Part shown: piece by piece, positions 3,755 to 52,650 of the stretch
Layout of the letters: each line of letters begins with the position of its first letter
Numbering within the stretch: position 1 is the first letter of the stretch
Assembly (NCBI GenBank): GCA_964016885.1
Contig: OZ024745.1
Span: 32,240,001 to 32,304,000 of the forward strand
DNA: 64,000 bases
Direction: 5' to 3'
Origin: Eledone cirrhosa
Lineage: Eukaryota
Notes under the pieces: model-generated
Databases searched by the model: none
What the model was told of the DNA's origin: nothing
What the model saw: the letters and a program-made list of their open reading frames with translations, nothing else
Position numbers and translations under genes: made by a program

Positions 3755-3802
3755 CTTGTTAGACCATAATCATTTGTATCAACTACATGTCAATCTTAGT
3801 GT
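3755..3802 (-). other. Candidate 48-nt exon (non-coding or terminal)
   Basis: Minus strand reads ttctttcag|ACACTAAG...CTAACAAG|gtattt. Stops occur in all three frames. Confidence 0.3.
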
Positions 3803-4527
3803 CTGAAAGAATATATTTGGCTTAAGAAATCATTGGCAGGAAGAACCAACTATGACAGGATTCTGAAATTGGGAGAAAAAGGAATATTTTTCCTATTGAT
3901 CTAAAGCTATAGTCACTTTATATAACTGGATAGCACATGGACAAAATGTTTGGAATATTCTAAATGTTTTCAAGGAGCCAAATGTATCAAACAAGGGGGT
4001 ATTTACTCAGAACTACATATATAGTTCAGAGAGAGAGAGAGAGAATTTGATGATGGATGAGACAAATCCACTTCCTCATTGGTTTCAAAGGTGGGCTGAG
4101 TCCATTCTATACTATTCCACACCTATATTAAATACATTATCCAATCTTTTCTCATCAGAACTTCAACTCTCTGGATCTCTTCCCTTGTCTCAATATTCTT
4201 TATGCACATCAACCAACAGACATTCAAGATAAACAGCAACCATTTTTTAGTTTCTTTAATAAATGGTTCTTGCTGTTTAACCCGAGGTCAACCCTGATCA
4301 AAGACATTTCAGCTATAAACATCTCGTCTTTTACTAATATGTAGAATGATTAATGATTACAAGGTAATGATGATAATGATAAAAACAATGATGACGAACA
4401 TTATGAAGATGATGATGATGATGAATATGATGATGATTACGATAATAATTTTGGTGATTATGATGATTATGATGATGTACTTAGAGTTAAAGTACAACAT
4501 GAAGACAATATCTTCAGCTGCCACCAA

Positions 4528-4582
<55 letters not shown>

Positions 4583-4754
4583 CCCTCCTTCTCCCCCTTA
4601 CTATACACTATACATAATATACACACTTCACTGATTTCTAAAAATGTATACAGCCAGCTGCAGACTTTATTATGAGTTTTTATCACTTTCTTTTTTTTAT
4701 TTTTTTGTTTTTTGTTCTTTTTTATATTACTTTACAGTTACATGACTTTTGTTG

Positions 4755-5255
4755 ATGTGGTGTTGGTGGTGGTAGTGGTGGTGGTGGTATTGGTGGTGCT
4801 GATGATGGTGATGGTAGTGGGGGGTGGGGGTGGGGGTGGTAGTGGTGGTGGTGTTGGTGGAGCTGATGATGGTGGTGATAGTGGTGGTGGAGGTGATGGT
4901 GGTGGTTATGATGGTGGTGGTAGTGGTGGTGGTGGCGGTGTTGGTGGTGATGGTGGTGGTTGTGGTAGTGGTGGCGATGGTGGTGTTGATGGTGGTGATG
5001 GTGGATGTGACAGTGGTGATGGTGGTGGTGGTGATGGTTGTGGCGGCAGTGGTGATGATGGTGGTGGTGGTGGATGTGACAGTGGTGGTGGGTGTGACAG
5101 TGGTGATGATGGTGGTGGTGATGGTGGTGGCGGCAGTGGTGGTGGCAGTGGTGGTGGTAGTTATTGCAGTAGTTGTTATTTTTGCAGTGGTAGCAGCAGT
5201 AAAAGTAACAGCAACAGTAGTAGTAGTAGTAGTAGTAGTAATGGTGGTGGTGGTG
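4755..5255 (+). repeat. (GGT/GAT)n trinucleotide array
   Basis: Degenerate GGT/GAT/AGT repeats seen directly. Confidence 0.95.
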
Positions 5256-5329
5256 TCAACTGCAGTATCAACAGCAGTTGTTTTAGGCAGTAGAAGCAGT
5301 AGCTATAGTGTTGTTGAAATGCTCCAGCC

Positions 5330-5600
5330 CTTCCTTAACCTCCCTTCTTACCCTACCCCCACCCCCTTCTTCCACCTCCCACTCTTCCTCCCCTCCCTTC
5401 TTTCTCCATCTCTTCCTTCACCTTCCTTCTTTCTCCACCTTTACCTCTCACTCTTTCTCCACCTCCCACTCTTTCTCCACCTTCACCTCTCGCTCTTTCT
5501 CCAACTCCCACTCTTCCTTCACCTTCACCTTTCACTCTTCCTCCACCTCCCTTCTTTCTACACCTTCACCTCCCACTCTTCCTCCACCTCCCCTCTTCAA
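5330..5600 (+). repeat. C/T-rich ~18-bp minisatellite (ctctttctccacctccca-like)
   Basis: Repeated polypyrimidine unit. Confidence 0.85.
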
Positions 5601-5704
5601 TCACACACAGAACTAATGCAACCAATATTATTACAGCAATATTGTTTTCCTTTGGAAAATGCAGGCATATATAGATAAAATCTCCCTCCCTCTCTCCCTA
5701 ACTA

Positions 5705-5818
<114 letters not shown>

Positions 5819-6099
5819 AATTGGCACTGATTCAATCCCAGTGAGTTTTACTACATTAGTATAGAAGCCAGTCAAAGAAAGCCATATCTTATGATTATTA
5901 GATGTGTGCATGTTTATGTGCATGTACGTATGTTGAGTCATGATAGCCTGTTTATAGCTCTGAGTTAATAAAGAATTATAACTTAGCTTAGATTAACTAA
6001 ATACACACTATCTCTCACTAAGTACATATATATATATATATATATACATACAGAGAAAGTAACACGAGTTACTTTAGGTTCATTCTGTCATTACTTCCA

Positions 6100-6200
6100 C
6101 AGAGGTCCGACAAGTCATTGATTACAGAGTCGGGCTAGATCGATACAGATCAAACTTTGAGCTGATCAATAGCGAAACATGCGTCACCAACCAATAAACG
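6100..6200 (+). ncRNA. Degenerate Penelope-type minimal hammerhead motif with AATAAA
   Basis: ccgacaa-gtcattgatt...gatcaatagc-GAAA-catgcg-TC-acc..aataaa. Related to the copy at 8151-8245. Confidence 0.45.
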
Positions 6201-6230
6201 TAATGAAGTAGTAACCACTCATCCTTGTTT

Positions 6231-6278
<48 letters not shown>

Positions 6279-8150
6279 ATAATAATTACGAAGACCAAAA
6301 TCTGAAGAGGGTTCGATAAGGATTGTATACATATATATATATGTATGTATATGTGTGTATATATCATCAATCAATGTCCACTTTCAAGGGTTGAATGGGT
6401 CTGTACTACAGTAGGGATACTGACCTACCAGACAGGCTGTGGGTTTGCATCTCCCTTACATATGGTTCCACGTTCTACCAAGTGCATTTTATTGTGACAC
6501 CAGCACAGGAAAAATTGTCATGTCTTTGATACAACTGGAGTGTCCTTCCAACCCTTTTTTGACAAGCTTTCTATGGCTGGATGTTATTCCTATCAGCAAC
6601 CACTTTACAGTATGTACTGGGTGTGTTTTTCAGGTAAACCAACATTACCAAGGAAGTTGTCATATCCTTGACTCAGTTATCACTTCAGAGTTGAAATTTA
6701 AAACCCGATAGGCAGATAGAGAATTCTTTGAAACACTTGTAAGCATTATATATAAATGAGATGGTAAAGAAATGTTAAGACTGGAGGGAAGCTGTTGAAA
6801 AGGACACATCCAACTAAAGCAAGCATAGTAAGGCAGATGTAAAATGATGATGAGGAGGAGGAAGAGAAGGAGGAGGGGGGGGGGGGGGGGGGGGGGGATA
6901 CAATTACTATCATCATTTAAAGTCCATATTCCATGCTAACAAAGATTGGATGAGTCATCACAGACCAATTCAGTTTGTTTTCAGATGGCCTGAGGGCCCC
7001 ACATCTTGCTTACATACATTTATGCACTCTATGGAGTGCACTAGGTGCATTTTATTATGACACCAACACTAGGGGAGGTTGTCATGTCTTTGACACAGCT
7101 GAAGAATTCTTTAGACAATATGATTGGCAGGTTTTCTATGGCTGGATGCTCTTCCAAACATCAACCACTTTACAGAGTGTACTGTGTGCTACTTGCACAC
7201 ACATAAATATATATTACTGTGTGTTTATAAATATTAAACAGTATTTATATATATATATAAAGAACAAAGATTAACAGGGATTTTAATTAAAGTATTTAAT
7301 TGATTTATGTCCGTTTCATTCGACTAACAAGAATAACTCCTCAGAAATAAATTAAATACAACTCCCTTAAACTTGCTTATATAAATATATTGTTATACTT
7401 TGGGAGGGTCATGCTGCTAATAAAAACACATGTACCAGTTTAATAACAAGATGGTTGTTTAGTTGTTAATTGTCAAAGCTCTTTTTGTCACACATTCTGT
7501 GACCTCTTCAGTGACTACTTTTGCTATGTTGTGTCTCTGCTTTTGCCCCATCTTGTCTTTATGAGCTAAGCTTCTGAACTGCATATGCATTGTGTCTGTG
7601 TGTGTATATATGTGTCTTCTTGTTCCTGTTTTACACCATGTTATCTTTATGGGCTGCACACCTGGATTGTGCAAGCATTTGAGTGTATTTGTGTGTTCCT
7701 GCTTCTATAAGCTTTTGTGTTTAGAAGTGGCTAGTGGTAACTATGGAGACAGAATGTTGTGAGGTGGGTGAAAAAAGTAGGTGAAAAGTATGGATGATTA
7801 AGAGCGGAGAGTGTTGGAAAACTAATGGAGACTAATGTTACAATAAGAGTGGAGATTCAGGCTGCAAACTTTACAAGACAATACAAAATCACAGATACAT
7901 CTAAACCTCATCAGCTCTTATTTGACTTGCAGTTTCACATGAGTAATGTGAATACTACAGTTTTTTATGCCTGTTCGTAAACCATTAAGCAAATAAACAT
8001 TTCTGCTGGTATGATGACCGTATGATGATAACAAAACATAACAGACGAACAGACAGACAAATCAGGGAGCGAAAGAAGATATGCCCAGTTGGTATCTGTC
8101 ACTAGCTAATAGAGAAGGCACAGCCCCAATATATATAATATTTATATATA

Positions 8151-8245
8151 TCTGATGAGCTATCAATTCCAGAGTTGGGCACAATAGATACTCATTGTAC
8201 CTTGAGCTGATCAATCATGGAATGCGTGTCACTCGTGAATAAACA
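8151..8245 (+). ncRNA. Degenerate Penelope-type minimal hammerhead motif with AATAAA
   Basis: CTGATGA-gctatcaatt...gatcaatcat-ggaa-tgcgtg-TC...aataaa, directly after (TA)n. Confidence 0.45.
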
Positions 8246-8279
8246 TAATAATGATATTTTGACACCTTGTTCGTTACTC

Positions 8280-8462
8280 TTGGCAGTATCGATAGAAGGT
8301 CAGACGCCATGCTTTGACGTATAGAGTTACGGTCCTTGCCATTCTGAGTTCAAATCCCGCCGAGGTTAACTTTACCTTTCATCCTTACGGGGTCGATAAA
8401 ATAAAGTACCAGTAATGCACTGGGTAATTGCTGGCCTTGTGCCAAACGTAGAAACAATTATT
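8280..8462 (+). mobile_element. tRNA-derived SINE (Nin-like core; octopus OK/OR-type)
   Basis: A-box-like tggcagtatcgatag, B box gagttcaaatccc, core ctttcatccttacggggtcgataaaataaagtacc and tail ggccttgtgccaaa.gtagaaacaattatt. More than 15 copies in the window. Confidence 0.85.
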
Positions 8463-8472
8463 TTGTATATAT

Positions 8473-10762
8473 GAAAGAAAGTTCAAGCATGTTCTACAAC
8501 GTGAGGACCAAAAACGTGAGGTGTTCAGGATTGCTAGGCAATGTGTCAAGGAAAACAGTGATATTGTCGGGGAGAAGTGTGTACTTAACGACGATGGCGT
8601 ACTTGCCATCACCGACGCCGATATGAAGGTAGCTTGGAAGTGTCACTATGAAAGGCTACTAAATGAGGAGAATAAATGGGAGAAAGACAGTCTCCCCCAC
8701 ATCGACCCAATAGAGGGACCAGCAGTGTTAGTCGAGGGTAGTATAATAAGTAAGGCAATCAAAGATATGAAGACAGGCAAGGCGGCTGGGCCTTCAGAAA
8801 TAGTTGCCGAGATGCTGAAGGCATCTGGTACGGTGGGACACACCATGGTCACCCGGATAGTCAACCAAGTCATACAGAATGGGGTTGTTCCGAAGGACTG
8901 GCATAGCAGCATTATTGTTAACTGTTATAAGGGTAAAGGAGATGCCCTAGATAGGAGTAACTATAGAGGCATTAAATTAATCGACCAGGTCATGAAGGTC
9001 ACGGAAAAAGTAATAGCGCAACTAATCAGAGAGCGAATTGATCTAGATGAAATGCAGTTCGGGTTTGTGTCAGGAAAAAGTACCACAGACGCTCTTTTCA
9101 TTGTACGACAACTACAGGAGAAGTACCTAGCTAAAAGTAAACCCCTATACTTAGCTTTCGTCGACTTGGAGAAGGCCTTCGACAGAGTCCCCCGTTCCAT
9201 TATCTGGTGGGCTCTTAGAAAACTAGGTGTTGATGAATGGCTTGTGAGAGCTATACAAGCCATGTATAAAGAAACAGTCAGCAAGGTTAGAATTAACAAC
9301 GAATATAGTGAAGAGTTTAGTGTAAAAGTTGGTGTTCATCAGGGCTCTGTTCTTAGCCCCCTACTATTTATTATTGCCCTCCAGGCTATAACAGTGGAGT
9401 TCAAGACCGGCTGCCCATGGGAACTCCTATACGCAGATGATCTAACGCTCATAGCTGAATCAATGGCCGAGCTAGAGAAGAAATTCCAAACATGGAAGCA
9501 CGGCCTAGAATCAAAAGGCCTTAAAATTAACCTGGCTAAGACTAAAGTTCTAGTTTGTAAGAAAGAAAATAAGGCGGCGGTCCCCTCCGGGAAGTGGCCA
9601 TGCGCAGAGTGTAGGAAAGGCGTAGGTAGAAGTTCCATTTTGTGTCCCAAATGCAAAGTTTGGGTGCATAAAAGATGTAGTGGGATCACAGGTAAGCTAA
9701 CTAAGAACATAGATTTTACATGTGGCCGGTGTTCAGGGGCAATAAGTAGCAGCAAGTGCCCACAAAATACTAGCTCTTTCAACTGCGCAGAGGGTTCTAT
9801 AGAAATAGTGGACAGCTTCCGTTACCTGGGTGACAAAATCAGCAGTGGGGGAGGGTGCTCTGAAAGTACAGTAGCTAGAGTCAGAACTGGGTGGAAAAAG
9901 TTCAGAGAGCTTATACCACTATTAGCCGCTAAAGGGTTCTCCCTAAAAATGAAAGGCAGGCTGTACGATGCCTGCATACGAACAGCAATGTTGCATGGCA
10001 GTGAGACCTGGGCATTGTGTGCAGAGGATATACGCAGACTAGAGAGAAACGAAGCTTGCATGCTCCGCTGGATGTGTAATAGTAATATACGTGAACGACA
10101 AAGCATAAACGAACTAAGGAAAAAATTAGAAATAAGAGGGATCAGATGTTGTTTACTAGAGAGAAGGCTACGTTGGTATGGTCACGTGATGCGCATGAAG
10201 GACGATGCAGGGCAATAAAGATAGACGGTAGCCACGGAATAGGCAGACCAAGAAAAACCTGGGACGAGGTGATAAACTCCGACCTCACACACTTACACCT
10301 CACCAAGACAATGTCACTGGACCGAAACCTTTGGCGGTACTCAGTAATAGAGAAGACCCGCCTTACCTAAATACAAAGTAAAACCTACTACAGTCAGTAG
10401 GCATCTCTAACAAAATACACCCCCGTCCCACCACCCCCACCCCATCCACACCGCCCCCTTCTATGTAAAGTTATGTTGGTGCCACACAATCCAGGCTGAA
10501 ACAAATGAGATCGTGTAGGTATCACGACAAAAAACACACAGTCCACGCTGTAATGTGGCCGTGTAGGCAACACGGTAAAAACCTCCCAGACCCACACTGT
10601 AAATGTGGTTGGTGTTAGGAAGGTCATCCAACTGTAGAAAACCTGCCAGACAGTCCTATGCGAGCAAGACAATCACTCTTGCCTCAAGTGGGAAAACCCC
10701 CGTCCAAACCCATGCAAGCGTGGAACACGGACGTTAAACGTTGATGATGATGATGATGATGA

Positions 10763-13196: not shown

Positions 13197-13947
13197 CTGC
13201 AGAAGAGCACAGAAATAGGAACTTCCACTTAATTGTTGCAAAACAAATTTGAAATTTAAAATTTAAATTTGTCCAGGTATCACAGCTATTGCCAATATAG
13301 GTTTGTTTTTATTGATTTATTATTTTAAATCAAGACAGGCAAACCGTATTATTTTAATTAGTATTTTTCAATCTAGCTAACTTGATCATTTGCAATGCGA
13401 ACACATGTATACTTGTATCAGTGTTTATCCCTATCATATATTCATTTGTATATATATATGTTGTGTGTGTGTATATATATATATCTATACTGTAAAGCAA
13501 AGCAGAACATATTTAAAAGAAAAAAGAATAAATAGCAACAGTTAAAAAGAAAACAATAAAACTCCACCATCTCTAATAAATAAAAGATATAAAAATGGAA
13601 ATGGCCTCCATTTTGTCACAGATTTATAAGTAATTCTAATTTTCTAAAGAGGTTGTAGATGTTTCTGGATTAATGCCAGAGTAGAGTATATTGATATAAT
13701 TTATTTTAAATAGAAATGACGAGTGCTCTTTCATTCAGTTGAAATTATCATACACAAACACATGCACACGTGTACATCATCATCATCATTGTTTAACATC
13801 TATTTTTCCATGCTTGCAAAGTACATATGTATATATATATATATAAATATATATGAAGTATTTCCGTAGGAAGGGTAAAGGAAAGGAGAGTGCTCTATGT
13901 ATGCTACAGAGCTATTTAATTATGTAATAAACAACATAAGACAATTA

Positions 13948-14020
13948 TTCCATTTACCAAAGGTTTCACGAAGACATACGAGCTCAACAGAGACGTCTGA
14001 AATCGCTCATCAGAATAAAA
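13948..14020 (-). ncRNA. Type I hammerhead ribozyme candidate
   Basis: ttttatt-CUGAUGA-gcga..agacgt..atgtct-tcgt-GAAA-cc-ttt-gg-UA-aatggaa. All three helices can form; cleavage triplet GUA. Confidence 0.65.
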
Positions 14021-14094
14021 ATTTAATATGGACGTAAGATATATATATATATATGTATATATATATATGTATATATATGTATGTATATATATGC

Positions 14095-17770: not shown

Positions 17771-18682
17771 AAGCCAATCCACCACCATCACCAAACAAAA
17801 TTTTCCATCATTTTAAATGCATGAGTTCCATGTTTCTAGCTTTAATCACTAGAGCATCTGTATAATGCATAAATAAAGGACAAAATTGACAAAAGAAAAC
17901 TCCCTAAAAATAATAAATGTATCAGATAAGATGACAGCATAATATTTCTCTGTTATATAACCGAACAACATATTCCTAATTTGCCATTCAAAATTTAAGT
18001 CTTGCTATGAATAAGTTAAATTTTCATATATTCAGAATTCCTACAATGAACACAAGTAAATATGCTGGTGGAACTGATGAAAAAAAAGTAGACAAAACCT
18101 GACCATATTAATGTGTTTCTTACATAGACATGAAGCTGTAGGAATTTCAATGAAGGGAAATGGGATATTAAGAATAGTCATGACCTTCTAAAATATGTTA
18201 ATAATGTTCAAATGAAAGGAAGTCATTCTGACAAAGAATCAAAGCCATTTCATTGAATTTGTCTGCCAAAAACTCAATACAACTTTATAAAGCTCACCTA
18301 TAGATACAATAAATATTTCTTGCATATATATAGTTAAAGTAGCATAAAAGAGGAAGTGGATTCCTTAGCAATCTAAATGTGAAATTTTGTTTCAATTCCT
18401 GAGTATAGTATCAAACTTCACTTGTATTTCACAGAAGAGAAAAAGATTACATGACCTTCATATAAGTTAATTTGATAGACTGGATTAGTATTTGCCCCAG
18501 AGAGAGAACCTTATAAAAAAATATAGCATAGAAGTGGTATACATAACATATAGATATTTAACGTTTAGACTCTCTTCCTGCTATTTCAAGCGTTAAACTA
18601 ATATATTTCTTCCATGTACTGTGACATTTATTTTATTTCTGTTTACCTTTTTCATATATATGTGTGTGTGTGTGTGTGTGTG

Positions 18683-18868: not shown

Positions 18869-20158
18869 GTGTATTTATATATATATATAAATATTTATAT
18901 AATATATAATACACATATATATACATATAGACATATATGTATATACATATGTATATATACATATGTATGTATGTCAGGTCGCTCTCGAGTGCTACTGGTA
19001 ACATGTAACCCAGTACAACCTGTCTCATGGCCGGGTTGTCGGCGACTAAACCATCAACCCCACCAATGTTATTTGGTGAGGAGGATGATATTTGGACACC
19101 CTGCGGGATGAAATACAAGACCCAGGAAAGGACAGAGAAACTCAACAGAGTCAATGGTTATCCAAATAGTACTTTTTAAAGTTTTCATTCACCATGTGTT
19201 TCAATTTACTCTTAGGTACTCAACTAAACAACATATAACTAATTAATTTTACAAGCTAACAACTGTTGGAAGTTTGCATCATGAATTTCAATCTTCCATT
19301 AGAGTTATATTGTAGCAGATGGTAAATGAAGTGGTATAGCTTGAAGCTCAGAATGAATTAATTGTAGAACTACATATGTAATTGTAGCAAAGGTTGTGTG
19401 AATTATATAGACATATTAACAATCCCATCGGAAGTATTAACTAGCACAGCATTAAAAGAGTCACATACTAAGTAAATGAATTAAATATACAAATCATTAT
19501 GATCATCATTAGCATCATCCTAAGAGCAGCTACAGAAACTGTCTCCTGAGTTATAAAAATTACAAGCCAATAAATAACATTGATAATTACTAGGATAAAG
19601 ATTACAGTTTGCCATGGAGGGCGAGCCTTATAAACAAATACATCATAGAAGTGGTACACATAACACACACACACACACATATATATGTATAGCATATTTA
19701 GCAATATACCGTATGTTTAATTAAAAACATTTAGAAGACCGTACGCTATCGGTTTTAAAGAAGTGACTATGTCACTTCTGTTTTTGCTGGACCGGCAATC
19801 GCTCTGTATAATAGAGGATTGATAGAATAAGATAAATCGATATGTTGACTAATAGACTACCTAGTGTCAATATCCGAGATCCATCTCACTGTCTTGTGAG
19901 ATGGATCTATTAGTCAATACAGTGATTTATCATAATTACTCAACCCTCTGAAACGATCGTTAAAAAATGAACTAATTAAGAACCTATCTTCACCTTTCTG
20001 CAAATTAATGCGACATACCATAAAAGCAGGCCTTCAACACCTAATTATAATTTATACTTTATATACCTCTATACTTCAACATGTCAATTATATGTAAAAC
20101 ATGTGCTTTTATGGCACACCGTATGTAGGTAGCTGAAAGCAACTATTCAGTCACTTAC

Positions 20159-20203
20159 CTTCTCTTGCTCCAGGTTACAGCCCGGCAAGTGATTGTATAA
20201 AAC
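20159..20203 (-). other. Candidate 45-nt exon (VLYNHLPGCNLEQEK or FYTITCRAVTWSKR)
   Basis: Minus strand reads ttccttcttttgcag|GTTTTATAC...GAGAAG|gtaagt. Two frames are open and the length is a multiple of 3. Confidence 0.6.
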
Positions 20204-20219
20204 CTGCAAAAGAAGGAAT

Positions 20220-20466
20220 AATAATAATAATGATTTCTTATATAAGCACAAGGCCAGCAATTTTTGGGGAGGGGAAAGTCGATTAAATCGACCCCAGTGC
20301 GTGACTGGTACTTTATTTTATCGACCCCGTAAGGGCAAAGTTAACCTCGTATTGACCCGGTAAGGCAAAGTTAACCTCGACGGGATTTGAACTCAGATCA
20401 TAAAGGGCCGTAACTCTAGGCTGCAAAGCATGGTGTCCGACCCTCTACCAATACTGACAATCCACA
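20220..20466 (-). mobile_element. tRNA-derived SINE with internal duplication
   Basis: Reverse complement of the SINE consensus; the gaccc.gtaag.gcaaagttaacctcg segment is duplicated. Confidence 0.85.
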
Positions 20467-20584
20467 ATAATGATAATAGTAATAATAATTTCTAATCTAA
20501 GCCCAAAGCCAATAATTTTGGGGGAAGGGAAAAGTCGATTAAACCAACCCCAGAGCATTATCAACCCCATAAGGATAGAAGAGG

Positions 20585-20950
20585 ATGACCTCACCTTTGT
20601 TTCAAAGATGTCTGCAAAATAGATATGAAGTAACTAGATCTGGGTATGCAGAGATACAAAGAGGCTGCTAATGATTGCCCTGTCTGAAGACAAGTATTAC
20701 ACAAGGGGATGGAGTGAAGGGAAAAGAAACTGAAACTTGCCCCCAAAGATAAGTGCACTTGAAGAAAGGACAATGCAGTAGCACCAAAGGAAAGCATCTT
20801 CAAATGCAATCACTGCATACAAGACTACCACTCCTATGTGGGCCTATACAGCCACAATAGATGCTGCATTACTGTCAGCAGCAGACACAAAATTCTCTGG
20901 GTGCAGATCCATGGACTTTCAAGACCATAGGATGCCAATAATAATAATAA
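20585..20950 (+). mobile_element. BovB-like RTE 3' fragment with terminal C2H2-type finger
   Basis: LCFKDVCK.DMK and FKCNHC.QD.HS.VGLYSHNRC, ending ggatgcc(aat)n. Confidence 0.7.
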
Positions 20951-21029
20951 GGATGAAAAGCAAACTAATGTCATTTTCATCTGTTTACTTCTAAATATTG
21001 TTGTTAACTTGTAGAAGCATGTATTTGTC

Positions 21030-22865
21030 TATCTAGCTACATATAACATTATATAATGTCTATCTAGTTATATATAACAGTATATAATGTCTATCTAGGT
21101 ATATATAACATTACATAATGTCTATCTAGTTATATATAACATTACATAATGTCTATCTAGTTATATATAACAGTATATAATGTCTATCTAGTTATATATA
21201 ACAGTATATAATGTCTATCTAGTTATATATAACAGTATATAATGTTATCTAGCTATATATAACATTATATAATGTCTATCTGGCTATATATAACATTATA
21301 TAATCTCTATCTGGCTATATATAACATTACATAATGTCTATCTAGTTATATATAACATTACATAATGTCTATCTAGTTATATATAACAGTATATAATGTT
21401 ATCTAGCTATATATAACATTATATAATGCATATCTAGCTATATATAACATTATATAATCTCTATCTGGCTATATATAACATTACATAATGTCTATCTAGT
21501 TATATATAACATTACATAATGTCTATCTAGTTATATATAACAGTATATAATGTCTATCTAGTTATATATAACAGTATATAATGTCTATCTAGTTATATAT
21601 AACAGTATATAATGTTATCTAGCTATATATAACATTATATAATGTCTATCTAGTTGTATATAACATTATATAATGTCTATCTAGTTGTATATAACATTAT
21701 ATAATGTTTATCTAGTTATATATAACATTATATAATGTCTATCTAGCTATATATAACAGTATATATGCCTATCTAGTTATATATAACAGTATATAATGTC
21801 TATCTAGTTATATATAACAGTATATAATGTCTATCTAGTTGTATATACCATTATATAATGTCTATCTAGTTATATATAACAGTATATAATGTCTATCTAG
21901 CTATATATAACATTATATAATGTCTATCTAGCTATATATAACATTATATAATGTATGTCTAGCTATATATAACAGTATATAATGTCTATCTAGTTATATA
22001 TAACAGTATATAATGTCTATCTAGTTATATATAACAGTATATAATGTCTATCTAGTTATATATAACAGTATATAATGTCTATCTAGCTATATATAACATT
22101 ATATAATGTCTATCTAGTTATATATAACAGTATATAATGTCTATCTAATTGTATATACCATTATATAATGTCTGTCTAGTTATATTTAACAGTATATAAT
22201 GTCTATCTAGCTATATATAACATTATATAATGTCTATCTAGTTATATATAACAGTATACAATGTCTATCTAGTTATATATAACAGTATACAATGTCTATC
22301 TAGTTATATATAACATTATATAATTGTTTCTACATTTGGCACTAGGCCAGCAATAAACCAGTGCATTACTGGTACTTTATTTTATTGACCCCGTAAGGAT
22401 GAAAGGCAAAGTTAACCTCGGCGGGATTTGAACTCAGATCGTAAAGGGATGTAACTAAGATGGAAAGCATATCCGACCCTCAACCGATACTGGCAATTCA
22501 CCATCTATCAGTTATATCTAACATTATATAATGTCTATCTAGTTATATATAACACTATATAATATCTATCTATATACAACATTATATAATGTCTGTCTAT
22601 ATATAACAGTATATAATGTCTATCTAGTTATATATGACAGTAAATAATGTCTATCTAGTTATATATAACACTATATAATATCTATCTATATACAACATTA
22701 TATAATGTCTGTCTATATATAACAGTATATAATGTCTATCTAGTTATATATGACAGTAAATAATGTCTATCTAGTTATATATAACAGTATATAATGTCTA
22801 TATAGTTATATATAACAGTATATAATGTCTATATAGTTATATATAACATTATATAATGTCCGACT
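21030..22865 (+). repeat. 31-bp minisatellite (tatataatgtctatctagttatatataacag), ~50 copies, interrupted by a SINE
   Basis: 31-nt period seen directly (cag at 21541 and 21572). Confidence 0.95.
22321..22505 (-). mobile_element. tRNA-derived SINE inserted in the minisatellite
   Basis: Reverse complement of the SINE consensus. Confidence 0.85.
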
Positions 22866-23633
22866 AGCTTTATTTAACAATTATCTATAAACATTTTTTC
22901 ACTTTCTAAAAAGTAGAAATGTTATCCTTTCAATTGTTATATTAATCTGGTTGACAAATGAAACAACGAAAGTAAAACTTCAAAGTCACTGCCACCTTTT
23001 TACTCAGAAAATAGAAAATACAATTAACACTCTAGGGACATTGTTTTAACTTTGTCCTAAATAGGAAGCTAATCATTGCTATGATAGACACCACATCTTG
23101 AGGTCCACTATCCCATTATTTTATTCGTTTTCTTTCATCTTTCTATCTGTGCTGTATGTTTTATCACACACACATGATATCAGCAGAAGGATTTGTCTTT
23201 CTGTTGCATGATCCAGCATTTTAAAATGGTACTCTCAATTAAAACATGCGAAACCATTTTGCTGGTTTGAGAGCTGATGAGGGTAAAGATGAATGTGTAT
23301 AAACTTGTCTTGTACATTGCCTTTCTTTATTTCCTTCTTCCAGTCACTTCTATGCACCAACACACTTCTCCTTGTCCTACTCCTCTTTCAATTATTTCTA
23401 TATTTCATCTGCTTGTCACCCACCTTGTGGATTGTCTCTCTGTTGGCCACTAGACTCTGTCTTCTGAAGTGCCCATCGCTATCTTTGACAGCATTTAGCT
23501 GTTTTAACGGCTGTTCTAGTGATGAATTTTCTCATTTTTATATGTATTCAGTATTTACTCTTATTGAGTGCTCATTCAGTTAATATTTGAAAGTACAACG
23601 ATATTTTAAGCTCATATTCTAATATATACATTA

Positions 23634-23972
23634 TCATCATCATTTCATTTTATGTCCGCTTTTTCCCTGCTTGCAAGGGTGGGACGGGAACTGATTCTGG
23701 CTTGATTTCTACAGCTGGATGCCCTTCCTAACTCCAACCTCATTTATAGTGAGCGCTGGGTGCATTTTTGCTGTGGCACCTCCACGACCACTTTGCAGTG
23801 GAATGATATGGACCCCCAGTCCCTATCATCTCATTTCTACAGCTGAGTAAACTGGAGCAATGTGAAATAAAGTGTCTTACTCAAGAAAACAACACATCAC
23901 CCGGTCTGAGAATTGAACTCACAATTTTTCGATTGCAAGGCCAATGCTCTAACCACTAAGCCATGTGCCTCC
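23634..23972 (-). mobile_element. Full-length composite SINE: tRNA head, CORE-like and Meta-like domains, RTE family-2 tail
   Basis: Minus strand has ggaggcacatggcttagtgg (A box), gagttcaattc (B box), cttgagtaagacacttt, ggaagggcatcc, and a tail matching 15893-15935. Confidence 0.8.
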
Positions 23973-24732
23973 ATATACATATATATATATATGTATGTGA
24001 AAAGTTAATATATATGTATGTGAAAAGTTAATGGAAAAAACACAACAGATGATGAAGTTCAATGAAGATATATATCAGTTACATGCTTAATATAGTAGTA
24101 AACGTCTTAATGTCTCAGATGTTAGTCCTTCATCAGAAAATAGAATGAGAAATTAAATGAATAAGACAATCGAATTCCAAAGTCATAAATAATACATTCA
24201 TAAAAACAAAGCCAATCATGAACTAAATGTCTATATTAGAACTAAGGCATCCACCATAATCCCTCCCTCAGACATCATCCACATTCCCAACACTTAACCT
24301 GATCTAAATATGAGTATGAGGGAGATGGACTTATCCAAGCTGCAGCTGTCAAATTACACAGTTTCTGTATAAGAATAGACATTAAACAATATATATAGAG
24401 ATATATTAGTATAGTTAATATGAAGCATTGTGAGATTGGTTTATTATTTTTATATATATATATAAAAATGGAAAAAATGAAACGAAATTTCATTTCTCAC
24501 TCTTAGTACGGCTGTTACTTAAATATAAGTATGTATATGTACATACATATATGTATACAGACGTACAGTAGTATGTATATATATACATACATGCACACAT
24601 ATATATATGTACGTATGGGTTTACCGAACATTTATTATAATGTTCAGTTTGTTTGTAAACAAACATCCCGAATTAAGCCGTACAGTGTTTAGCAACCATC
24701 ATTGCCCTTTTGTTCAACACTGACAAAGGAAT

Positions 24733-24771
24733 GATGAACTAGTTTCAAGCTTATCAGCTATCGTCAGCATC
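24733..24771 (-). ncRNA. Minimal type I hammerhead candidate
   Basis: gatg-CUGACGA-tagc-tgataa-gctt-GAAA-CUAG-UU-catc, with a palindromic stem III loop. Confidence 0.6.
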
Positions 24772-24845
24772 GTATACCTTCCTGTCAGATGATTGAACGT
24801 TTGAAAGTATATACTTTCCTTATGCATATTAACGGCTTATATACT

Positions 24846-24890
<45 letters not shown>

Positions 24891-24898
24891 ATATACAG

Positions 24899-24938
<40 letters not shown>

Positions 24939-25550
24939 TGGCAATATAATAATATAAATAGATAGATAGATAGATACATTTGTATAGATAGTTATATGGA
25001 TGGATATTAATAAAATTATTTCATGCATGTGTACACATGCAAATATGTATATCATGTCCTTGTGGCTGATGTATTTCAATTCATATGTTCATCAGATTTC
25101 CCTATTGACAAATTTAATACAAGTTTAATCTTGTATTTTCAATACATATTTCTTTGATTCTGTAAGTAATAAAATAAAATAAATATATAAAAAGCACCAG
25201 CATGGGTATGCATATATATATATATAAATATATATAGCCGTCAAAACAGCTTGAGCTCTGCCGTCGGGGTCATACCTTTTCCTCTATTTATATATATATA
25301 TATATATGTTGTAAGCGATATATAGTGATATATTTATACAGCTCTGATTATTTGACCCTCTACACAATGACGTGGGCCACTTTAGAGCTTATATAGGGAT
25401 CAACCACTAAACATAGAAATGTATCATTATTTATCAGGGGAAATAAAAGGAAATTGATAATCTTATTTCTTCATGTGTTTCAGAAATGAAGCTAACAAAA
25501 TATACTGCCAACACATATAAACACACACACGTGTGTGTGTGTGTGTGTGC

Positions 25551-25639
<89 letters not shown>

Positions 25640-25816
25640 GATAGATAGATAGATAGATAAATATACACGAGTGTGTATGATTGTGTTTAGAAGATTATAT
25701 TAATAAAAGGAATTCCAACTTTGTCTGATTTACTCGTTTTATTTACAATCCTTTAAAATGTATAATGGTATTAGAATGAAATAGTATGATAGAATATTAA
25801 ATGTTAAGTGTTAATT

Positions 25817-25853
25817 GAACAAGTACTTTCATGCTTTCGCAATCTTCAGGTTC
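25817..25853 (-). ncRNA. Hammerhead-like motif lacking stem II
   Basis: gaac-CUGAAGA-ttgc-GAA-agcat-gaaa-gtacU-U-gttc. Confidence 0.45.
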
Positions 25854-25920
25854 ATAATGTGTGGTGACAGTCAAGTTTGCAATTTTCAACTGTCATATAT
25901 ATATATAAATGAAAATATAG

Positions 25921-25956
<36 letters not shown>

Positions 25957-25962
<6 letters not shown>

Positions 25963-26322
25963 GATATTAATAAATGGAAACTATATTTATAAAACCATAT
26001 TTATTTCATTATACATATTTCAGGGATACCATATTAAATTATGGTATGCCTTCATCAGACAAAATACAATATATGACAGTTTTACAAATAGCTTTGACGT
26101 ACCCTTTTAAAATACAACCATTACTTTTGGAGGCTATCCAGACAGCCTCCAAAAGTAATGGTTGTATTTTAAAAGGGTACGTCAAAGCTATTTGTAAAAC
26201 TGTCATATATTGTATTTTGTCTGATGAAGGCATACCATAATTTAATATGGTATCCCTGAAATATGTATAATGAAATAAATATGGTTTTATAAATATAGTT
26301 TCCATTTATTAATATCGTATAT
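25957..26322. repeat. Near-perfect palindrome (~180-bp arms) with a hammerhead-like motif in each arm
   Basis: Mirror ORFs 25974+ and 26305- are identical up to the centre at 26139/26140. The arm contains CTGATGA-agg-c-ataccata..tatggtat-c-cct-GAAA-tatg-TA..aataaa. Confidence 0.95.
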
Positions 26323-26409
26323 CTACTCCAAATACTTGTCGAGTGCTTTATATCAGTTATAAAAATATTTACTTGTTGCATCCCAACAACTTTAAATAGA
26401 ACTTTTGCA

Positions 26410-26458
<49 letters not shown>

Positions 26459-26574
26459 ATGTGTGTGTGTGCATGTATTGTAGTAAAACTTGATATAAAA
26501 TATCCAAGGGTTTAGAACACCCAGTCCGTGGGACAAGTTACGTATAATCAGATCACAACAGATGATCATATACA

Positions 26575-27060
26575 TATCATCATCATCATCATCGTTTAAC
26601 ATCTATCTTCCATGCTAGCATGGGTTAGATGGGCGTTGTCCCACTAGAGGCAAGATTGGTCAGGTAACCGTGTCTCGCTCGTATAGGACTATCTGGCAGG
26701 TTTTCTACGGCTGGATGCCCTTCCTAACACTAACCAGATTTACAGTGTGGACTGGGAACTTTTTACTGTGTTACCTACATGGCCACATTACAGCGTGGAC
26801 TGTGTGTGTTTTTTGTCATGACACCTACACAATCTCGATCTCATTTTCTCATTAGTTTGGACTGGATGTTGTGGTACCAACATAATTTTACAGAGAAAGG
26901 GTGGTGTTGGTGGGAGTGGGAGGATGGAGTAGGGGTAGTGGGGTGGGTTTATATTTGGTGAAGAGGTGCCTACAGACTGTAGATTTCGCTTTGTACATAG
27001 GCAAGGCGGGTCTCTGTATTACTGCTGAGTGTGGGATTGGAATCACTACAGAATGAGCCC
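26575..27060 (-). mobile_element. RTE family-1 3' end (older copy)
   Basis: Reverse-complement match to ~10340-10760. Confidence 0.85.
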
Positions 27061-27349
27061 TCAATATATACATAGAGTTAAATATTTCATATAACGGCAT
27101 AGAAGGTAGCATATGTTAAAACCAGCCACATTTTGTCATGTTCTCTTCATAGTTCTGATTAATTATGTTATATTATATCAAGCCTTTTCATATTACACTA
27201 CTTAATTACATTATAGATAATTGGTGGCCAATAAGGCAAGGCTGATTCATTGATAATCTGTAATTTACCAGTTTCTTCTTTGGTGCATCCTTAATACATA
27301 CACACACATACACACACATATATACATATATATATATATATTGATATGA

Positions 27350-27670
27350 TGTTGCTAGTTAAGACTAGTATGACCATCCATTATTAATCAACTTAATACT
27401 CTGTACTTGTGTAATGTTACCACCGACCACTCTAACAAGGCATTCATAAGACTCACAGCCAGTGAATTCAGAACTAAATTATACAAACATCAATACAGCT
27501 TGTGTAACCCAGCCCAGAAACAAGGTTAAGGCTTGTACAGAGAATATGCCATCTACACAACCTATGCTCTGAAGAGACCATAAATATATTGTTTGCCAAA
27601 GAACAACTCTTAAAAAAAAAAATTGTCACAACATGTAGATGCAGGATATACAAAATATACCTCAACCACA
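27350..27670 (+). pseudogene. Decayed Penelope-like GIY-YIG endonuclease remnant
   Basis: TLYLCNVTTDHSNKAFIRLTASEFRTKLYKHQYSL and HNLCSEETINILF..QLLKKKIVTTCR resemble the PLE pattern VIY...YIG.T..FK.R...H / CNLC.EE...LN.....CRH. Confidence 0.6.
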
Positions 27671-28001
27671 AGCTCATCCATGACCCTGGAGCATAAGAAA
27701 CTGTGTTACTATTACACACTCACATACACAACAAACCTTTATACATCCAAAACCTATAACCCATACCAGTTATAACATATGCGTTTACACATGGCATAAT
27801 AAATACATACCCAACAATTTGAACAACACTTAAGTAAAAGCCACCCCAACATACTAGAAAGGAGGCATACACCTCCACTTAGCACTTTACTAATACACCA
27901 ACCATAATGCCCTAATCTTTTCTGTAGACTAGTGTATACATAAGAATAAATATACTGATTGCTACCACATAAGTAGACACCAATATTTACAGCCTTCTGC
28001 C

Positions 28002-28221
28002 GGGCGGTGGATTGGCAGTATCGGTAGAGAATCAGACGCCATGCTTTGCAGCAAAGAGTTACGGCCCTTTATGATCTGAGTTCAAATCCCGCCGAGGTTA
28101 ACTTTGCCTTTCATCCTCACGGAGTTGATAAAATAAAGTACCAGTCACGCACTGGGGTCGATTTAATTGATTTTCCCCTCCCCCCAAATCACTGGCCTTG
28201 TGCCTATATAAGAAACCAATA
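28002..28221 (+). mobile_element. tRNA-derived SINE (full length) with probable target-site duplication
   Basis: SINE consensus flanked on both sides by accaatatttacagccttctgc (27979-28000 and 28215-28236). Confidence 0.9.
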
Positions 28222-29971
28222 TTTACAGCCTTCTGCACTAGCTAATAAAATAACAAACAACCAACAACATAGTCCTACACCCACAATGCAAATACAATAG
28301 TCTACCAAATACAAAGAACGACTCTGTATGCAACACCAATACAACATCTACACACAATAACCACCACAGTAAAACAATATATCTACATATATATATTATT
28401 TCCTACTGTTCTAACATTAATTAAAAGACAATGACAACCACATAAACTCATGCAAATAGATAATGGTATCAAAGATGCAGCTCAAAATGAATCAATTGTT
28501 TGTTTAATAGAGAGTGCATAATATTGAAAATGGTGCTATTACAAATGTATAAAGTTCCAAGACATTAAAAAACACATACATGTAGAAGATAGAGAAATGA
28601 ATATTGAAACAAGTTATAAGTATATTAGTGTATCCATGTCAAAAATGACAACAGTTCTATTATAAAGAATGGCACAGCTGTTAAAAGCACAGAGGAAATT
28701 ATTGATAAATGTATTACCTAAAGGCTTCACACATTATATTTAATGATAAAATATTACACTTCCAACTGTGTGTAACGGCTGAGTCCAATAATTTATAGAG
28801 GTGATAGTGCGAGTCACTCATTGAAAATGGTAGATTACAATGATATATAAACATATAGAGACTTCTACAATAAAAAAAAATGTCAGCTTTGTTTGTTCAT
28901 TACATTTTTGTAACTAGTTCACTGGAGAGTCAGCCAGGAGAACATGGATTTTATCTATTTATTGTCATCAACTTCAACTATGGAAGGATATCAACTTTTT
29001 AATTTTATTAAATACTTTCTTTATTTCAATGCAACCATATATTACTGACAAAGATGAATACTTTTAAAATAATGTGACACTAAAATCTTTAGTAATGCAT
29101 TCTCCAAAGCAAGTTAGTTATTAATTAATTTGGCATCAGTTATTTAGTGATCTATTGAGCAATATTTTAACCATATTTACATGTGCTATTGAACTCTTTG
29201 ATGTTTCATTTGCATTATCCTCATTGAATATATTTTTAATTTGGCAGTATTTAAATAATGGAAATATTTGACCATCAAAGATTTACATATCATTATTCTA
29301 AAATATTTGCAGTGAGACTACAAGTCCTGCTAAAGCATCATAAAGCTAACCTCTTCAACCCATTCACACTCTTTTCTTGTTTACCAGTAAAGACAATGTT
29401 ATAAACATCTCGTTCTTCCACTCATTTTCCTTTTATTTGTCATTTGGTAGCCTCCTACTTCCACCACACTATCTTCTTGACACGACAGTGAACAAAAACA
29501 CTAAGACGGTTATTATATGTAGATTATGCCTTTGTATCTGATGCATTATAAATAATTACATCCATCTTTTCATGTTATCAAAGAAGTTTATTTTCATATT
29601 ATTATCCTGTTTGATTTTTATATTTGTTGTTTATCAAATATGAGTTATTTTGTTTCATCTTGTCTGTTTTATTATGTAGAAATTCTGATCAGTGTGTTTC
29701 CAGTGATTTTTATGTTTTGGAGACTTGATGACACAGTCTACAAGACTATATGTGATTTATTATATATTCATCATTAAAGCAAATATTTTGGTTTTCTTTC
29801 TGATCATTGTAGTTTGTCTTTTTACCGAAATACAAGATTAATTTAATCTAGAAGTCCAATGAATCAGCACTAAAACATTACTGGTGACATTTTAACTCAG
29901 ATAGTAGACAGATAAAACTTAACATTTCAATTCATTTATATATGCTAATTTGCCACCCTCATTACATATAT

Positions 29972-30165
29972 TAATAATTGTTTCTACTTTTGGCACAAGG
30001 CCAGCAATTACCCAGTGCATTACTGGTACTTTATTTTATCGACCCCATAAGGATGAAAGGCAAAGTTAACCTCGGTGGAATTTGAACTCAGAATGGCAAG
30101 GGCCGTAACTCTATGCGTCAAAGCATGGCGTCTGACCCTCTACCGATACTGCCAATCCACCGCCC
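29972..30165 (-). mobile_element. tRNA-derived SINE
   Basis: Reverse complement of the SINE consensus. Confidence 0.88.
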
Positions 30166-30864
30166 AGTAATATCAAATAAAAAGTACCCAATCCACACAG
30201 TAAATGTAGTTGGTGTTAGGAAGGGCATCCAACCATGGAAGCCAAGCTAAAACTAGTCCTATATGAGCAAGACACAGTCATCTAATCTGGCTTGTCTCAC
30301 AATGGGACAATTCATCTAACCCATGTTAATGTGGAAAATAAATAGAAAATGCTAGTGTATCAACATTTTAGTCAAAGAATCTGTTTGAAATCTTAGATGT
30401 TAAACGGTGATGATGATGATGATAACTATAAAGCAACAAGGAAGAGTTTCTACATGAAGGTTTGGACTGCTAGAAATATCAGCTAAATGTTTCTCAAATT
30501 AATTTTACAGTTTTATAAAAAGGAAGGAAACAAGGGATAAAGTGGTTCTTAGACATTGTGTAACCATTAAGCAGAATATACACATACTTAGAACATCAAG
30601 AGAAGAGAAACATCACTTTATTCAAATTAACTGCGTCTGTCATTCCCAAAATCTTTTTTTGTAGGCTTTATATATGAAGGATAGTGGTAGATTGGCAGTA
30701 CCAGTAGAACATTAAACACCATGCTTTGCAGCATAGAGTTACGGCCCTTTAGGTTTTGAGTTCAGATCCCACCAAAGTCAATTTTGCCTTTCATCCATTC
30801 AAGGTCGATAAAAAAAAAGTATCAGTCTAGTATTCCAGTCTAGTATCAATTCTTCCTCTACTCC

Positions 30865-31100
30865 ACATCAGTTGTTAGCTGTTGAGACACTGCATCCTTT
30901 AAAACCTCCATGCTTCCTGAGATTCACCAACACTATACCTGATGCCCCCCCCCCCTCCATACACACGCACACATGTATTTCATGACTCGTACACTGTTCA
31001 TTTTCTTGACATTTGAACATTATTCTATGTACTATACATGCACCTTTGATGAGTTGTAGTGCATCTGAGCACTGTACAGAATAATTTCATTATTATTATC
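30865..31100 (+). mobile_element. CR1-group LINE 3' end
   Basis: Matches the reverse complement of 16010-16245. Confidence 0.85.
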
Positions 31101-32675
31101 TCTCTCTCAGTTTCTATCTTTCTTTGGAAGATTCTTTCCACTTTTACATACTTATTTTCCTGTTATGTCCTGATGGATTCATCCCTGATCATATTCCACT
31201 AATTCTCATTCATAGTAGTCTATCATAATGTAATAGGCTAGACCGTTAGCTTATCTTTGTTCATATTTAAATCCCTCAGTCCGCCTGCTGCCATGCTATA
31301 TTAAGTACATTAAAACCAGAGTTATTTTCAAACAAATTTCATACCATTTTCACCAATCTCTTACACACATTCTCTCTACCTCTCTACCCACTCTCTCTCT
31401 CTCTCGATTAAACAGAACTTTTGATTCAAAAGCAATCAACCAACAAGTCTCTTTTTTCATAGGATGAATATTCAGGAGTAAAATAATCAAAGTCATTTTC
31501 AGCTTTACAGGAAAACATTAGCACAGAATTTTTATTTTAATCATTAGTAAACAACTAATTTATAAACATTAGTGCAATATGGAGTAAGACAAACAGCTAA
31601 GTGGTTTACTTCATTGATACTGGTTTGTGTTTATGGCCAAAACATTCAACATCCAATAGTCTAGTCCAGTTGCTTGTTATTTTTAGGTTTTAAAGACCCC
31701 ATCCCTCCCCGAAGGATATTTTATCTATTAAGTGCAGATATAGTCTCAGTTAATAAAAGTTTTGGAACTCACCATAAATGTGACCCTTCCATACTTTTAT
31801 TTGTCTAAGAAAGAAAGCAGGGCCATAGAAAACATAGAAAACATTACAGAACACTCCCCTATAATTCTTTCCTTGGCCATATTATTGAAAATGTTTTCTT
31901 TTTTTCTGCTGACCTAAGTCTGAAATCTGTGACCTCAGATGAACCAGCAGTACCATTGATAGGGGTCGAAACTGCCCAAGTCCATCTCAATGGCCGATGA
32001 CCATGGAGTTCGGTCTTTCGTTTGTATATTTATTTTAGAAAAATACTTTTTTAGGGTTTCCCTTTAAAAAATTGTTTTTTGTTTTGTTTTGTTCGTTGTC
32101 TTGTCTTCTCTTTGTTAATATTCTTATTTGTATATATATATATACATATATAAGTATAAAGGACGATGTGTTCAAGCACATAGCTGCTATAAAATAGAAT
32201 GAAAACCCTTAAAAGATGGAAAAAGAAGTTCCCATATGTTGTTTGAATAAAAGGCAAGATAGTCATGGCTTGAATACTTTTGATAATAGGTTTGTTCAAA
32301 CAGGTTTGACTAGGTTAAACAACAACAAAACTCTAGCAAGTCTATCTTCTAGTACATATTCCAGGCAGATATGTGAATTATGTTACATAAAATGAAGTGG
32401 ATAATCCAAAGTTACACAATTAAGAATCCACAGTGGACTTTACGCCAATACCTATCAGTTGGTTAGCCAATAATTTATATACTTAACCACATTACCTTGC
32501 CTTGTGCTGTTAAAATAAGTTGTTATCTAAGCTTATACTCATGGCAGTGCTGGTGGTGTTAGTAGGAGGAAGGGTGGTGGTATGGTGGTGCTAGTCAGCA
32601 TTTGACAGAAGTTAATTCTGGAAAATCAGAAAATGAAATATATTTCTTATATCATAAAAAGTCAAAAGTAAACTA

Positions 32676-50988: not shown

Positions 50989-51357
50989 AATTCTACTATA
51001 ATAATAATAAAAAGAAATGAATGAACAAATAAATAAATAAGCGACTCATTCATAAATGTTTTAACGTATGGAATGTAACACATGAAAAACCCAATCATCT
51101 CCATACACTTTCAGACTTCATTTCACTACTGGATACAGCTCATATCTTTCTTTCTATTTTTTCGTTCACCATCTTCATTGAAAATAGATATTTAGAAATA
51201 ACATAAATGAGATAAAGGGTTTGAGAATGAAAGGAAAGAATAGAACATCTAACAAAGACAGAAAGAAAGTGTGGGGGAGGATAGAAAGGATGAAAGCAGA
51301 AACTTATCTCTTACAAACAAAACAACTTTTGTGGTTTTGAATAATATTCTTTTATAT

Positions 51358-51398
<41 letters not shown>

Positions 51399-52382: not shown

Positions 52383-52491
<109 letters not shown>

Positions 52492-52650
52492 CATATATAT
52501 ATACATATATATATACATATATATATACATATATATATATATATACACATATATATATACATATATATATATATATACACATATATATATACATATATAC
52601 ATATATATACATATATATATATACATATATACATATATATACATATATAC

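What the first reader, a model, noticed from the sequence alone, without database searches (positions are those of the whole stretch)
24090..26322. Dense cluster of architecturally diverse minimal hammerhead-ribozyme motifs
Seen: six CUGANGA...GAAA-type motifs within 2.3 kb, at ~24105-24140 (-, degenerate, GAGA for GAAA), 24733-24771 (-), ~25064-25100 (-, degenerate), 25817-25853 (-) and the two palindrome arms (~26005-26058 - and 26221-26275 +). They are separated by (TA)n tracts, are unrelated outside the core, and lie ~1 kb from a Penelope GIY-YIG remnant. Known: Penelope-like elements and retrozymes carry minimal type I hammerheads, often with a palindromic stem III loop that allows dimeric cleavage. 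Inference: several distinct short ribozyme-bearing retroelement families accumulate at TA microsatellites here, possibly an undescribed cephalopod retrozyme/pLTR population.
Basis: partly seen in the sequence, partly recalled or inferred. Interest (0 to 1): 0.75.

Follow-up and report, generated by a model that had tools for sequence, protein, structure and literature searches.

The report
Pile-up of Penelope ribozyme-bearing ends
The hammerhead motifs are mostly real and mark the cut-off ends of several unrelated Penelope-type jumping genes plus one small non-coding repeat that sit together in TA repeats, an ordinary sight in this genome; their self-cutting is predicted, not tested.

Summary
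Four of the six motifs are intact type I hammerheads (none in 1000 shuffles), one is a decayed copy, and one (25068-25095) has no helices and no relatives and is unsupported. A seventh, half-deleted U3-A8 hammerhead at 25234-25283 was missed. Each supported motif belongs to its own high-copy family. Four are 5'-truncated 3' ends (pseudo-LTRs) of Penelope-like elements: two Neptune-type, two Hydra-type; two of them were traced to 4.2-kb pLTR-ORF-pLTR units. The 185-bp palindrome is the usual inverted Penelope insertion. Only family B (about 430 nt, non-coding, head-to-tail runs, at least 9,618 motif copies) is a retrozyme-like short element; its inverted insertions pair one long with one short end (14 of 23; never two long), as the autonomous families do (45 of 51), so Penelope enzymes likely move it. 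Background is about 47 hammerheads per Mb, and other families are about 2.8 times denser beside an insertion, so this is a dense but expected pile-up. An octopus Hydra element with a hammerhead and (TA)n target is already in Craig 2021's supplement, and this scan reported the same picture elsewhere in this genome. New members of known kinds; cleavage and circular RNA are untested.

The parts
24013..24157 (-). Family A: old, 5'-truncated 3' end of a Neptune-type Penelope-like element, with a decayed minimal hammerhead at 24105-24140 (GAGA for GAAA)
   Evidence: 1207 first-look candidates, best others 85-90% alike; longer copies carry a decayed Neptune-type endonuclease upstream in 5 of 25 loci, E 5e-15 to 2e-5; boundaries
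24463..24837 (-). Family B: one 5'-truncated copy (unit positions 55-430, long end) of a non-coding unit of about 430 nt, retrozyme-like, flanked by TA tracts
24733..24771 (-). Minimal type I hammerhead of B: helix I extended past an internal loop, 4-bp helix II, palindromic helix III (CUAG), predicted site after GUU (GUA in many copies)
   Evidence: pair counts on 24 homology-picked rows
25068..25095 (-). Motif C: core boxes only, no helices, single copy; likely a chance match or an unrecognisable relic
25234..25283 (+).
   Evidence: 11,333 exact copies of a 33-mer; endonuclease ORF upstream in longer copies; whole motif folds as a three-way junction, z -1.85 to -2.36; 94% over 50 nt
25657..25896 (-). 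Family D: young, 5'-truncated pseudo-LTR of a Neptune-type Penelope-like element
   Evidence: 98-99% to other copies; whole pLTR-ORF-pLTR units with an inverted 5' copy in L155 and L156, 4202 nt between hammerheads in L155
25816..25854 (-). Minimal type I hammerhead of D: 5-bp helix I, 3-bp helix II with GAAA loop, palindromic helix III (GUAC), predicted site after CUU
   Evidence: 5,173 exact copies of the 37-mer, control 0
25954..26138 (-). Family E inverted arm (short end), hammerhead at 26002-26066
26141..26409 (+). Family E main arm (long end, about 83-nt tail beyond the palindrome): young pseudo-LTR of a Hydra-type Penelope-like element, hammerhead at 26213-26277 with 8-bp helix I, long interrupted helix II, predicted site after AUA
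   Evidence: 98-100% to other copies, 1340 candidates; RT and endonuclease ORFs upstream in L119, L122, L123; 4204 nt between hammerheads in L287; covariation
27389..27690 (+). Decayed Hydra-type GIY-YIG endonuclease remnant, an older relative of G's protein; no hammerhead found behind it; not linked to the cluster
   Evidence: tblastn 46% and 54% over 46 aa each, E 1.3e-17; no DNA match to G

Best explanation
The stretch is a pile-up of five independent insertions at TA repeats: truncated 3' ends of four Penelope-like retrotransposon families and one short non-coding tandem element likely moved by the same enzymes, each family carrying a hammerhead predicted to cut its own RNA. Shown: family membership, copy numbers, the link of A, D, E and G to RT/GIY-YIG genes, the 430-nt head-to-tail unit of B, TA flanks, paired long and short ends in inverted insertions, and covariation in E and B. 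Inferred: the endonuclease nicks TA tracts, reverse transcription starts at one of two sites near the RNA's 3' end and usually stops early, so only the hammerhead-bearing end is left; priming from both nicks gives the palindrome; every insertion sits in TA, so later insertions land beside earlier ones. The hammerheads of B, D and E would cut as dimers through their palindromic helix III; the lone truncated copies here are likely inert leftovers.
For: Descriptor 4 against 0 of 1000 shuffles. Exact motif counts 5,173 (D), 9,618 (B), 11,333 (G), reversed-pattern controls 0. ORFs upstream: E, D, G, A. B: head-to-tail junction in 42 of 60 loci (some overlap), runs of 3 and 5 units at 420-430 nt; Penelope protein matches in 7 of 60 B loci were neighbours (opposite strand, downstream, or cut off by locus edge), none running into the unit. 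Inverted insertions with one long and one short end: D 15 of 17, E 5 of 6, G 25 of 28, B 14 of 23; long-long 0 of 74. Covariation: E relatives 7 pairs changed on both sides, 26 cells against 12.1 shuffled, 0 of 500; B 1 pair, 6 cells against 1.9, 4 of 500. Helix III palindromes pair between molecules (-6.6 kcal/mol for B and D) and not within one. Other families 104 per Mb beside 198 anchor loci against 37.5 per Mb in 32 other regions. Literature: PMC4209133, PMC8557442, PMC11167929 (two RT start sites define the tail).
Against: No cleavage or RNA data. Rfam recognises none of the motifs. D is nearly invariant, so covariation could not be tested; among 7 thinned D variants the changes in the motif are mostly breaks. 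B's double-sided changes fall on one pair, and the count of such pairs is not above shuffles (456 of 500). The G10.1-C11.1 pair that PMC4209133 calls highly conserved is absent in B, D and E. The shuffle control ignores relatedness. The cluster is denser than any of 198 anchor loci (0 had three other families within 1.5 kb). One B insertion has two short ends. Clade names rest on motifs, not on a tree.
Confidence: 0.88

Rival explanations
1. A locus-specific ribozyme cluster kept by selection, for instance to process a host transcript on the minus strand.
For: A, B, D and the inverted E arm all lie on the minus strand; the density exceeds all 198 anchor loci.
Against: The copies differ in age (85-90% for A, 98-100% for D and E) and A and G are damaged in the core; all are members of families with thousands of copies; clustering is genome-wide (44 of 198 loci have another family within 1.5 kb); the window was picked for its density.
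Confidence: 0.04
2. All motifs belong to a population of short non-coding retrozymes.
For: True for B. Most D, E and G copies are only 100-300 nt long.
Against: A, D, E and G run upstream into RT/GIY-YIG sequence in longer copies and show no short head-to-tail unit.
Confidence: 0.05
3. B is a satellite or a solo pseudo-LTR amplified at the DNA level, not through RNA.
For: Tandem runs exist; no RNA evidence was obtained.
Against: Copies are dispersed on many contigs, have ragged 5' ends and two fixed 3' ends at TA tracts, and show the Penelope inverted layout in 21 of 60 loci.
Confidence: 0.08

Closest known systems
Minimal hammerheads in pseudo-LTRs of metazoan Penelope-like elements (Cervera and de la Pena 2014, PMC4209133; parts 1-2 of 4 read)
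   Same: Type I core, short palindromic helix III, many sequence families per genome, mostly single truncated copies, dual motifs 100-700 bp apart on opposite strands, U3-A8 core variant
   Different: B, D and E lack the G10.1-C11.1 pair; G has a stable 4-bp helix III and a long helix II; estimated number (about 140,000, rough) is far above the 2,000-9,000 that paper gives per genome
Hydra clade of Penelope-like elements, including Hydra-1_Obim of Octopus bimaculoides (Craig et al. 2021, PMC8557442; passages, section 11, supplement rows read)
   Same: E and G: C-terminal GIY-YIG, CxCX5C linker, CxxC and CxH motifs, no CCHH, hammerhead near the 3' end, (TA)n targets
   Different: E is 4.2 kb with a long 3' untranslated region (clade 'generally' under 3 kb), has DKA and RWR in place of DKT and RWK, and its hammerhead differs from that listed for Hydra-1_Obim
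Neptune clade of Penelope-like elements (motifs as given in PMC8557442)
   Same: D: DKG motif, CX2-5CxxC linker, CCHH endonuclease, pLTR-ORF-pLTR with an inverted 5' copy; A: decayed endonuclease of the same type
   Different: No tree was built; D's protein is split by frameshifts or read in two frames in the copies seen
Animal non-LTR retrozymes (Cervera and de la Pena 2020, PMC7229834, passages and Discussion read; Li, Clavereau and Pollet 2026, 10.64898/2026.07.22.740005, part 1 of 5 and passages read)
   Same: B: non-coding head-to-tail unit with one type I hammerhead per unit, monomers to pentamers
   Different: B's hammerhead is of the minimal Penelope type; it shows Penelope tails and inverted arms; circular RNA is not shown; neither paper's main text contains the word octopus

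Membership tests
Minimal type I hammerhead of Penelope-like elements | Core boxes CUGANGA, GAAA, UH with helices I and II | tested here: met
   B, D, E and its inverted arm; not met by the window copies of A (GAGA), C (no helices) and G (half absent)
Minimal type I hammerhead of Penelope-like elements | Short palindromic helix III that can pair between two copies | tested here: met
   CUAG, GUAC, UAUGUA; duplex -6.6, -6.6, -2.2 kcal/mol, no fold alone
Minimal type I hammerhead of Penelope-like elements | Compensatory changes in helices | tested here: inconclusive
   Clear for E relatives, one pair for B, not testable for the near-invariant D
Minimal type I hammerhead of Penelope-like elements | G10.1-C11.1 pair at the base of helix II (common, per PMC4209133) | tested here: not met
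   Absent in B, D, E; present in many A copies
Minimal type I hammerhead of Penelope-like elements | Self-cleavage, as a dimer | not testable with these tools
   No assay
Neptune-type Penelope-like element (D) | RT with DKG motif, CX2-5CxxC linker, C-terminal GIY-YIG with CCHH | tested here: met
   ORFs of L154-L157 read by eye against the motifs in PMC8557442
Neptune-type Penelope-like element (D) | Pseudo-LTRs with a hammerhead flanking the ORF; inverted 5' copy | tested here: met
   L155, L156
Neptune-type Penelope-like element (D) | Placement in the RT tree | not tested
   No tree built
Hydra-type Penelope-like element (E, G) | CxCX5C linker, CxxC and CxH around E and N, no CCHH | tested here: met
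   L119, L256 against section 11 of PMC8557442
Hydra-type Penelope-like element (E, G) | DKT and RWK motifs | tested here: inconclusive
   E has DKA and RWR; a 75%-identical relative in L042 has DKT; not seen for G
Hydra-type Penelope-like element (E, G) | Insertion into (TA)n | tested here: met
   3' ends of E copies run into TA in nearly all of 30 loci; G likewise
Hydra-type Penelope-like element (E, G) | Length generally under 3 kb (a tendency, not a rule) | tested here: not met
   E unit 4204 nt in L287
Animal non-LTR retrozyme (B) | Short non-coding tandem unit with a type I hammerhead in each unit | tested here: met
   420-430 nt, runs of 2-5, junction in 42 of 60 loci
Animal non-LTR retrozyme (B) | Canonical hammerhead with loop 1-loop 2 contacts | tested here: inconclusive
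   Helix I is extended past an internal loop but contacts were not identified; Rfam finds nothing
Animal non-LTR retrozyme (B) | Expression as self-cleaved linear and circular RNA | not testable with these tools
   Only contigs, no usable RNA run

The most novel reading that the evidence does not exclude
Family B is a cephalopod-type retrozyme copied from an RNA circle by Penelope enzymes, and the long-end plus short-end rule that it shares with three autonomous families side by side (59 of 74 inverted insertions, none long-long) records two reverse transcriptions started at two RNA sites from the two nicked DNA strands. This genome, with on the order of 100,000 hammerheads and young Neptune and Hydra partners, would make the proposed retrozyme-Penelope link directly testable.
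Probability: 0.55. Interest if true: 0.5.

Novelty: new member of a known kind. Interest (0 to 1): 0.25.

Why it matters
The cluster itself matters little: it is a dense sample of a genome-wide population. What it offers is a compact panel of young, high-copy hammerhead families (Neptune, Hydra, U3-A8 variant and a non-coding tandem unit) with matching protein-coding partners, useful for testing dimer cleavage, for asking which enzyme moves retrozymes, and for repeat annotation, since a 2026 Octopus vulgaris repeat paper (PMC13282606, passages read) leaves 893 SINE families unclassified and does not use the word ribozyme.

Tried and rejected
Rfam: no hammerhead among 60 matches in 20000-32000 and nothing at gathering score in 4 loci. 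Pfam: 0 families for 4 proteins; PDB sequences: 0; the proteins were classed by motifs from PMC8557442 instead. My first reading of D as a fixed short element was dropped when unbiased copies ran into an ORF. Motif C as a family member: rejected. Link between the GIY-YIG remnant and the cluster's hammerheads: rejected by position and strand. Sequencing runs: no RNA holder listed; laying contigs gave no circle junction and no empty site, since repeats were skipped; these blanks are no evidence. The second descriptor misses B and D and the first misses long-helix forms, so the background is their union, 15 hits. A U3-A8 scan found 0 in 320 kb and one weak window hit at 11175, not followed. Lunse et al. 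(PMC5785218) was not held; it is known here only through the review PMC6765202 (passages). Supplements of the bioRxiv preprint were not asked for and may list further species. Search of earlier notes by B's sequence found nothing.

Full report
Observation. A type I descriptor accepts four (24733-24771 -, 25816-25854 -, 26002-26066 -, 26213-26277 +) and none in 1000 shuffles of the region. The last two are the arms of one 185-nt palindrome. Against this, Rfam shows no hammerhead and lone folding energies are ordinary, as may be expected for minimal motifs with an unstable helix III.

Families. Each context was searched in the genome. E (palindrome): 1340 first-look candidates, 40 scored, 98-100% alike. 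B: 2889 candidates, 95-97%. D: 1143, 98-99%. A: 1207, 85-90%. C: only itself, also at 2 mismatches over 28 bases; it has no helices and is unsupported. Exact pattern counts were 5,173 for D, 9,618 for B and 11,333 for a further repeat, G, with reversed-pattern controls at 0.

What the families are. About a third of 30 E loci share over 1 kb upstream, leading to an RT and C-terminal GIY-YIG ORF; L287 holds a whole unit of 4204 nt with an inverted 5' copy. Its CxCX5C linker, CxxC and CxH motifs and lack of CCHH match the Hydra clade as defined in section 11 of PMC8557442; DKT and RWK appear as DKA and RWR. D runs into an ORF with DKG, a CX2-5CxxC linker and CCHH, Neptune-type; L155 and L156 are pLTR-ORF-pLTR with an inverted copy. 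A carries a decayed Neptune-type endonuclease upstream in 5 of 25 loci. The GIY-YIG remnant at 27389-27690 is an old relative of G's protein, downstream and unlinked. B differs: its upstream sequence is its own 3' end. The unit is about 430 nt, a head-to-tail junction is seen in 42 of 60 loci (a few overlap), runs of 3 and 5 units occur, and no ORF runs into it.

Structure. Homologues were picked by sequence, not by structure, then thinned: 17 of 35 for E plus the window copy, 24 of 25 thinned rows from 58 for B (one deletion variant left out; the window copy stands for L224). E: 92% of cells paired, 7 pairs with double changes, 26 cells against 12.1 shuffled. B: 95% paired, one pair with double changes. 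These shuffles ignore relatedness. D hardly varies. Helix III sequences are palindromes that pair between molecules, the dimer arrangement of PMC4209133, where activity in vitro was low.

Insertion signature. 3' ends run into TA tracts. Each family has two fixed 3' ends. Inverted insertions join one long and one short end in D 15 of 17, E 5 of 6, G 25 of 28 and B 14 of 23; the rest have a truncated end, except one short-short in B; none is long-long. PMC8557442 describes a tail at one end of such insertions and PMC11167929 ties it to two RT start sites and nicking of both strands; that paper also found hammerhead cleavage unnecessary for insertion in vitro. The palindrome here fits: short arm to 25954, long arm to about 26409. 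That B obeys the same rule suggests that Penelope enzymes move it (inference).

Is the cluster special? In 32 regions of 10 kb taken at round coordinates on 16 contigs, two descriptors found 8 and 12 hits, 15 distinct, and 0 in reversed sequence: about 47 per Mb, roughly 140,000 per genome if the sample is fair (wide error; palindrome arms are not independent). The five families had 12 insertions in those 320 kb against 56 other-family insertions in 538 kb beside 198 anchor loci, 37.5 against 104 per Mb; 154 loci had no other family, 35 one, 9 two, none three. The window's D has three others within 1.5 kb, so it is in the tail, but it was chosen for density and the probes came from it. D and E share one TA tract (25895-25961). 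Piling up by TA targeting is the likely cause.

Known and new. Hammerheads in pseudo-LTRs, inverted pairs and the U3-A8 variant are in PMC4209133; an octopus Hydra element with a hammerhead and (TA)n preference is in the supplement of PMC8557442; Penelope origin of retrozymes is argued in PMC7229834 and 10.64898/2026.07.22.740005. Searches for 'hammerhead ribozyme + Penelope + octopus' and 'retrozyme + cephalopod' returned only PMC8557442, so a cephalopod retrozyme family was not found in the library searched. Earlier notes of this scan describe the same picture in this genome and two-armed retrozymes of 310 and 466 nt; they are leads, not support. Verdict: real, explained, new members of known kinds; interest 0.25.

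Noticed in passing
window 13830-14045 (-): A further hammerhead family (13948-14020) with a long helix II and a larger helix III; relatives in many fetched loci.
   Followed up: partly
window 18560-18620 (+): A second fragment of family A, 80% over 61 nt.
   Followed up: no
window 21026-22860: Array of about 60 copies of a 31-nt AT-rich unit.
   Followed up: no
window 20220-20465, 22320-22456, 23830-23965, 28000-28220, 29970-30165: Several copies of common short interspersed repeats; one gives a sub-threshold tRNA match at 23906-23963.
   Followed up: no
window 24158-24390: Another older repeat directly upstream of A, 80-85% to L190.
   Followed up: no
window 51353-60130: About 8.8 kb of degenerate TA repeat.
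   Followed up: no
L225-L254 and L124-L153: 5' truncation points bunch at predicted RNA hairpins: inside helix II for G and at a hairpin just upstream of the hammerhead for D.
   Followed up: partly
L155 3325-4755 (-), L156: D carries a separate upstream reading frame of about 450 residues before the RT frame; whether it is an ORF1 joined by a frameshift was not examined.
   Followed up: no
L169, L173, L188, L192, L193, L022, L139: At least six more hammerhead families, some with much enlarged helix II, in background regions and flanks.
   Followed up: no
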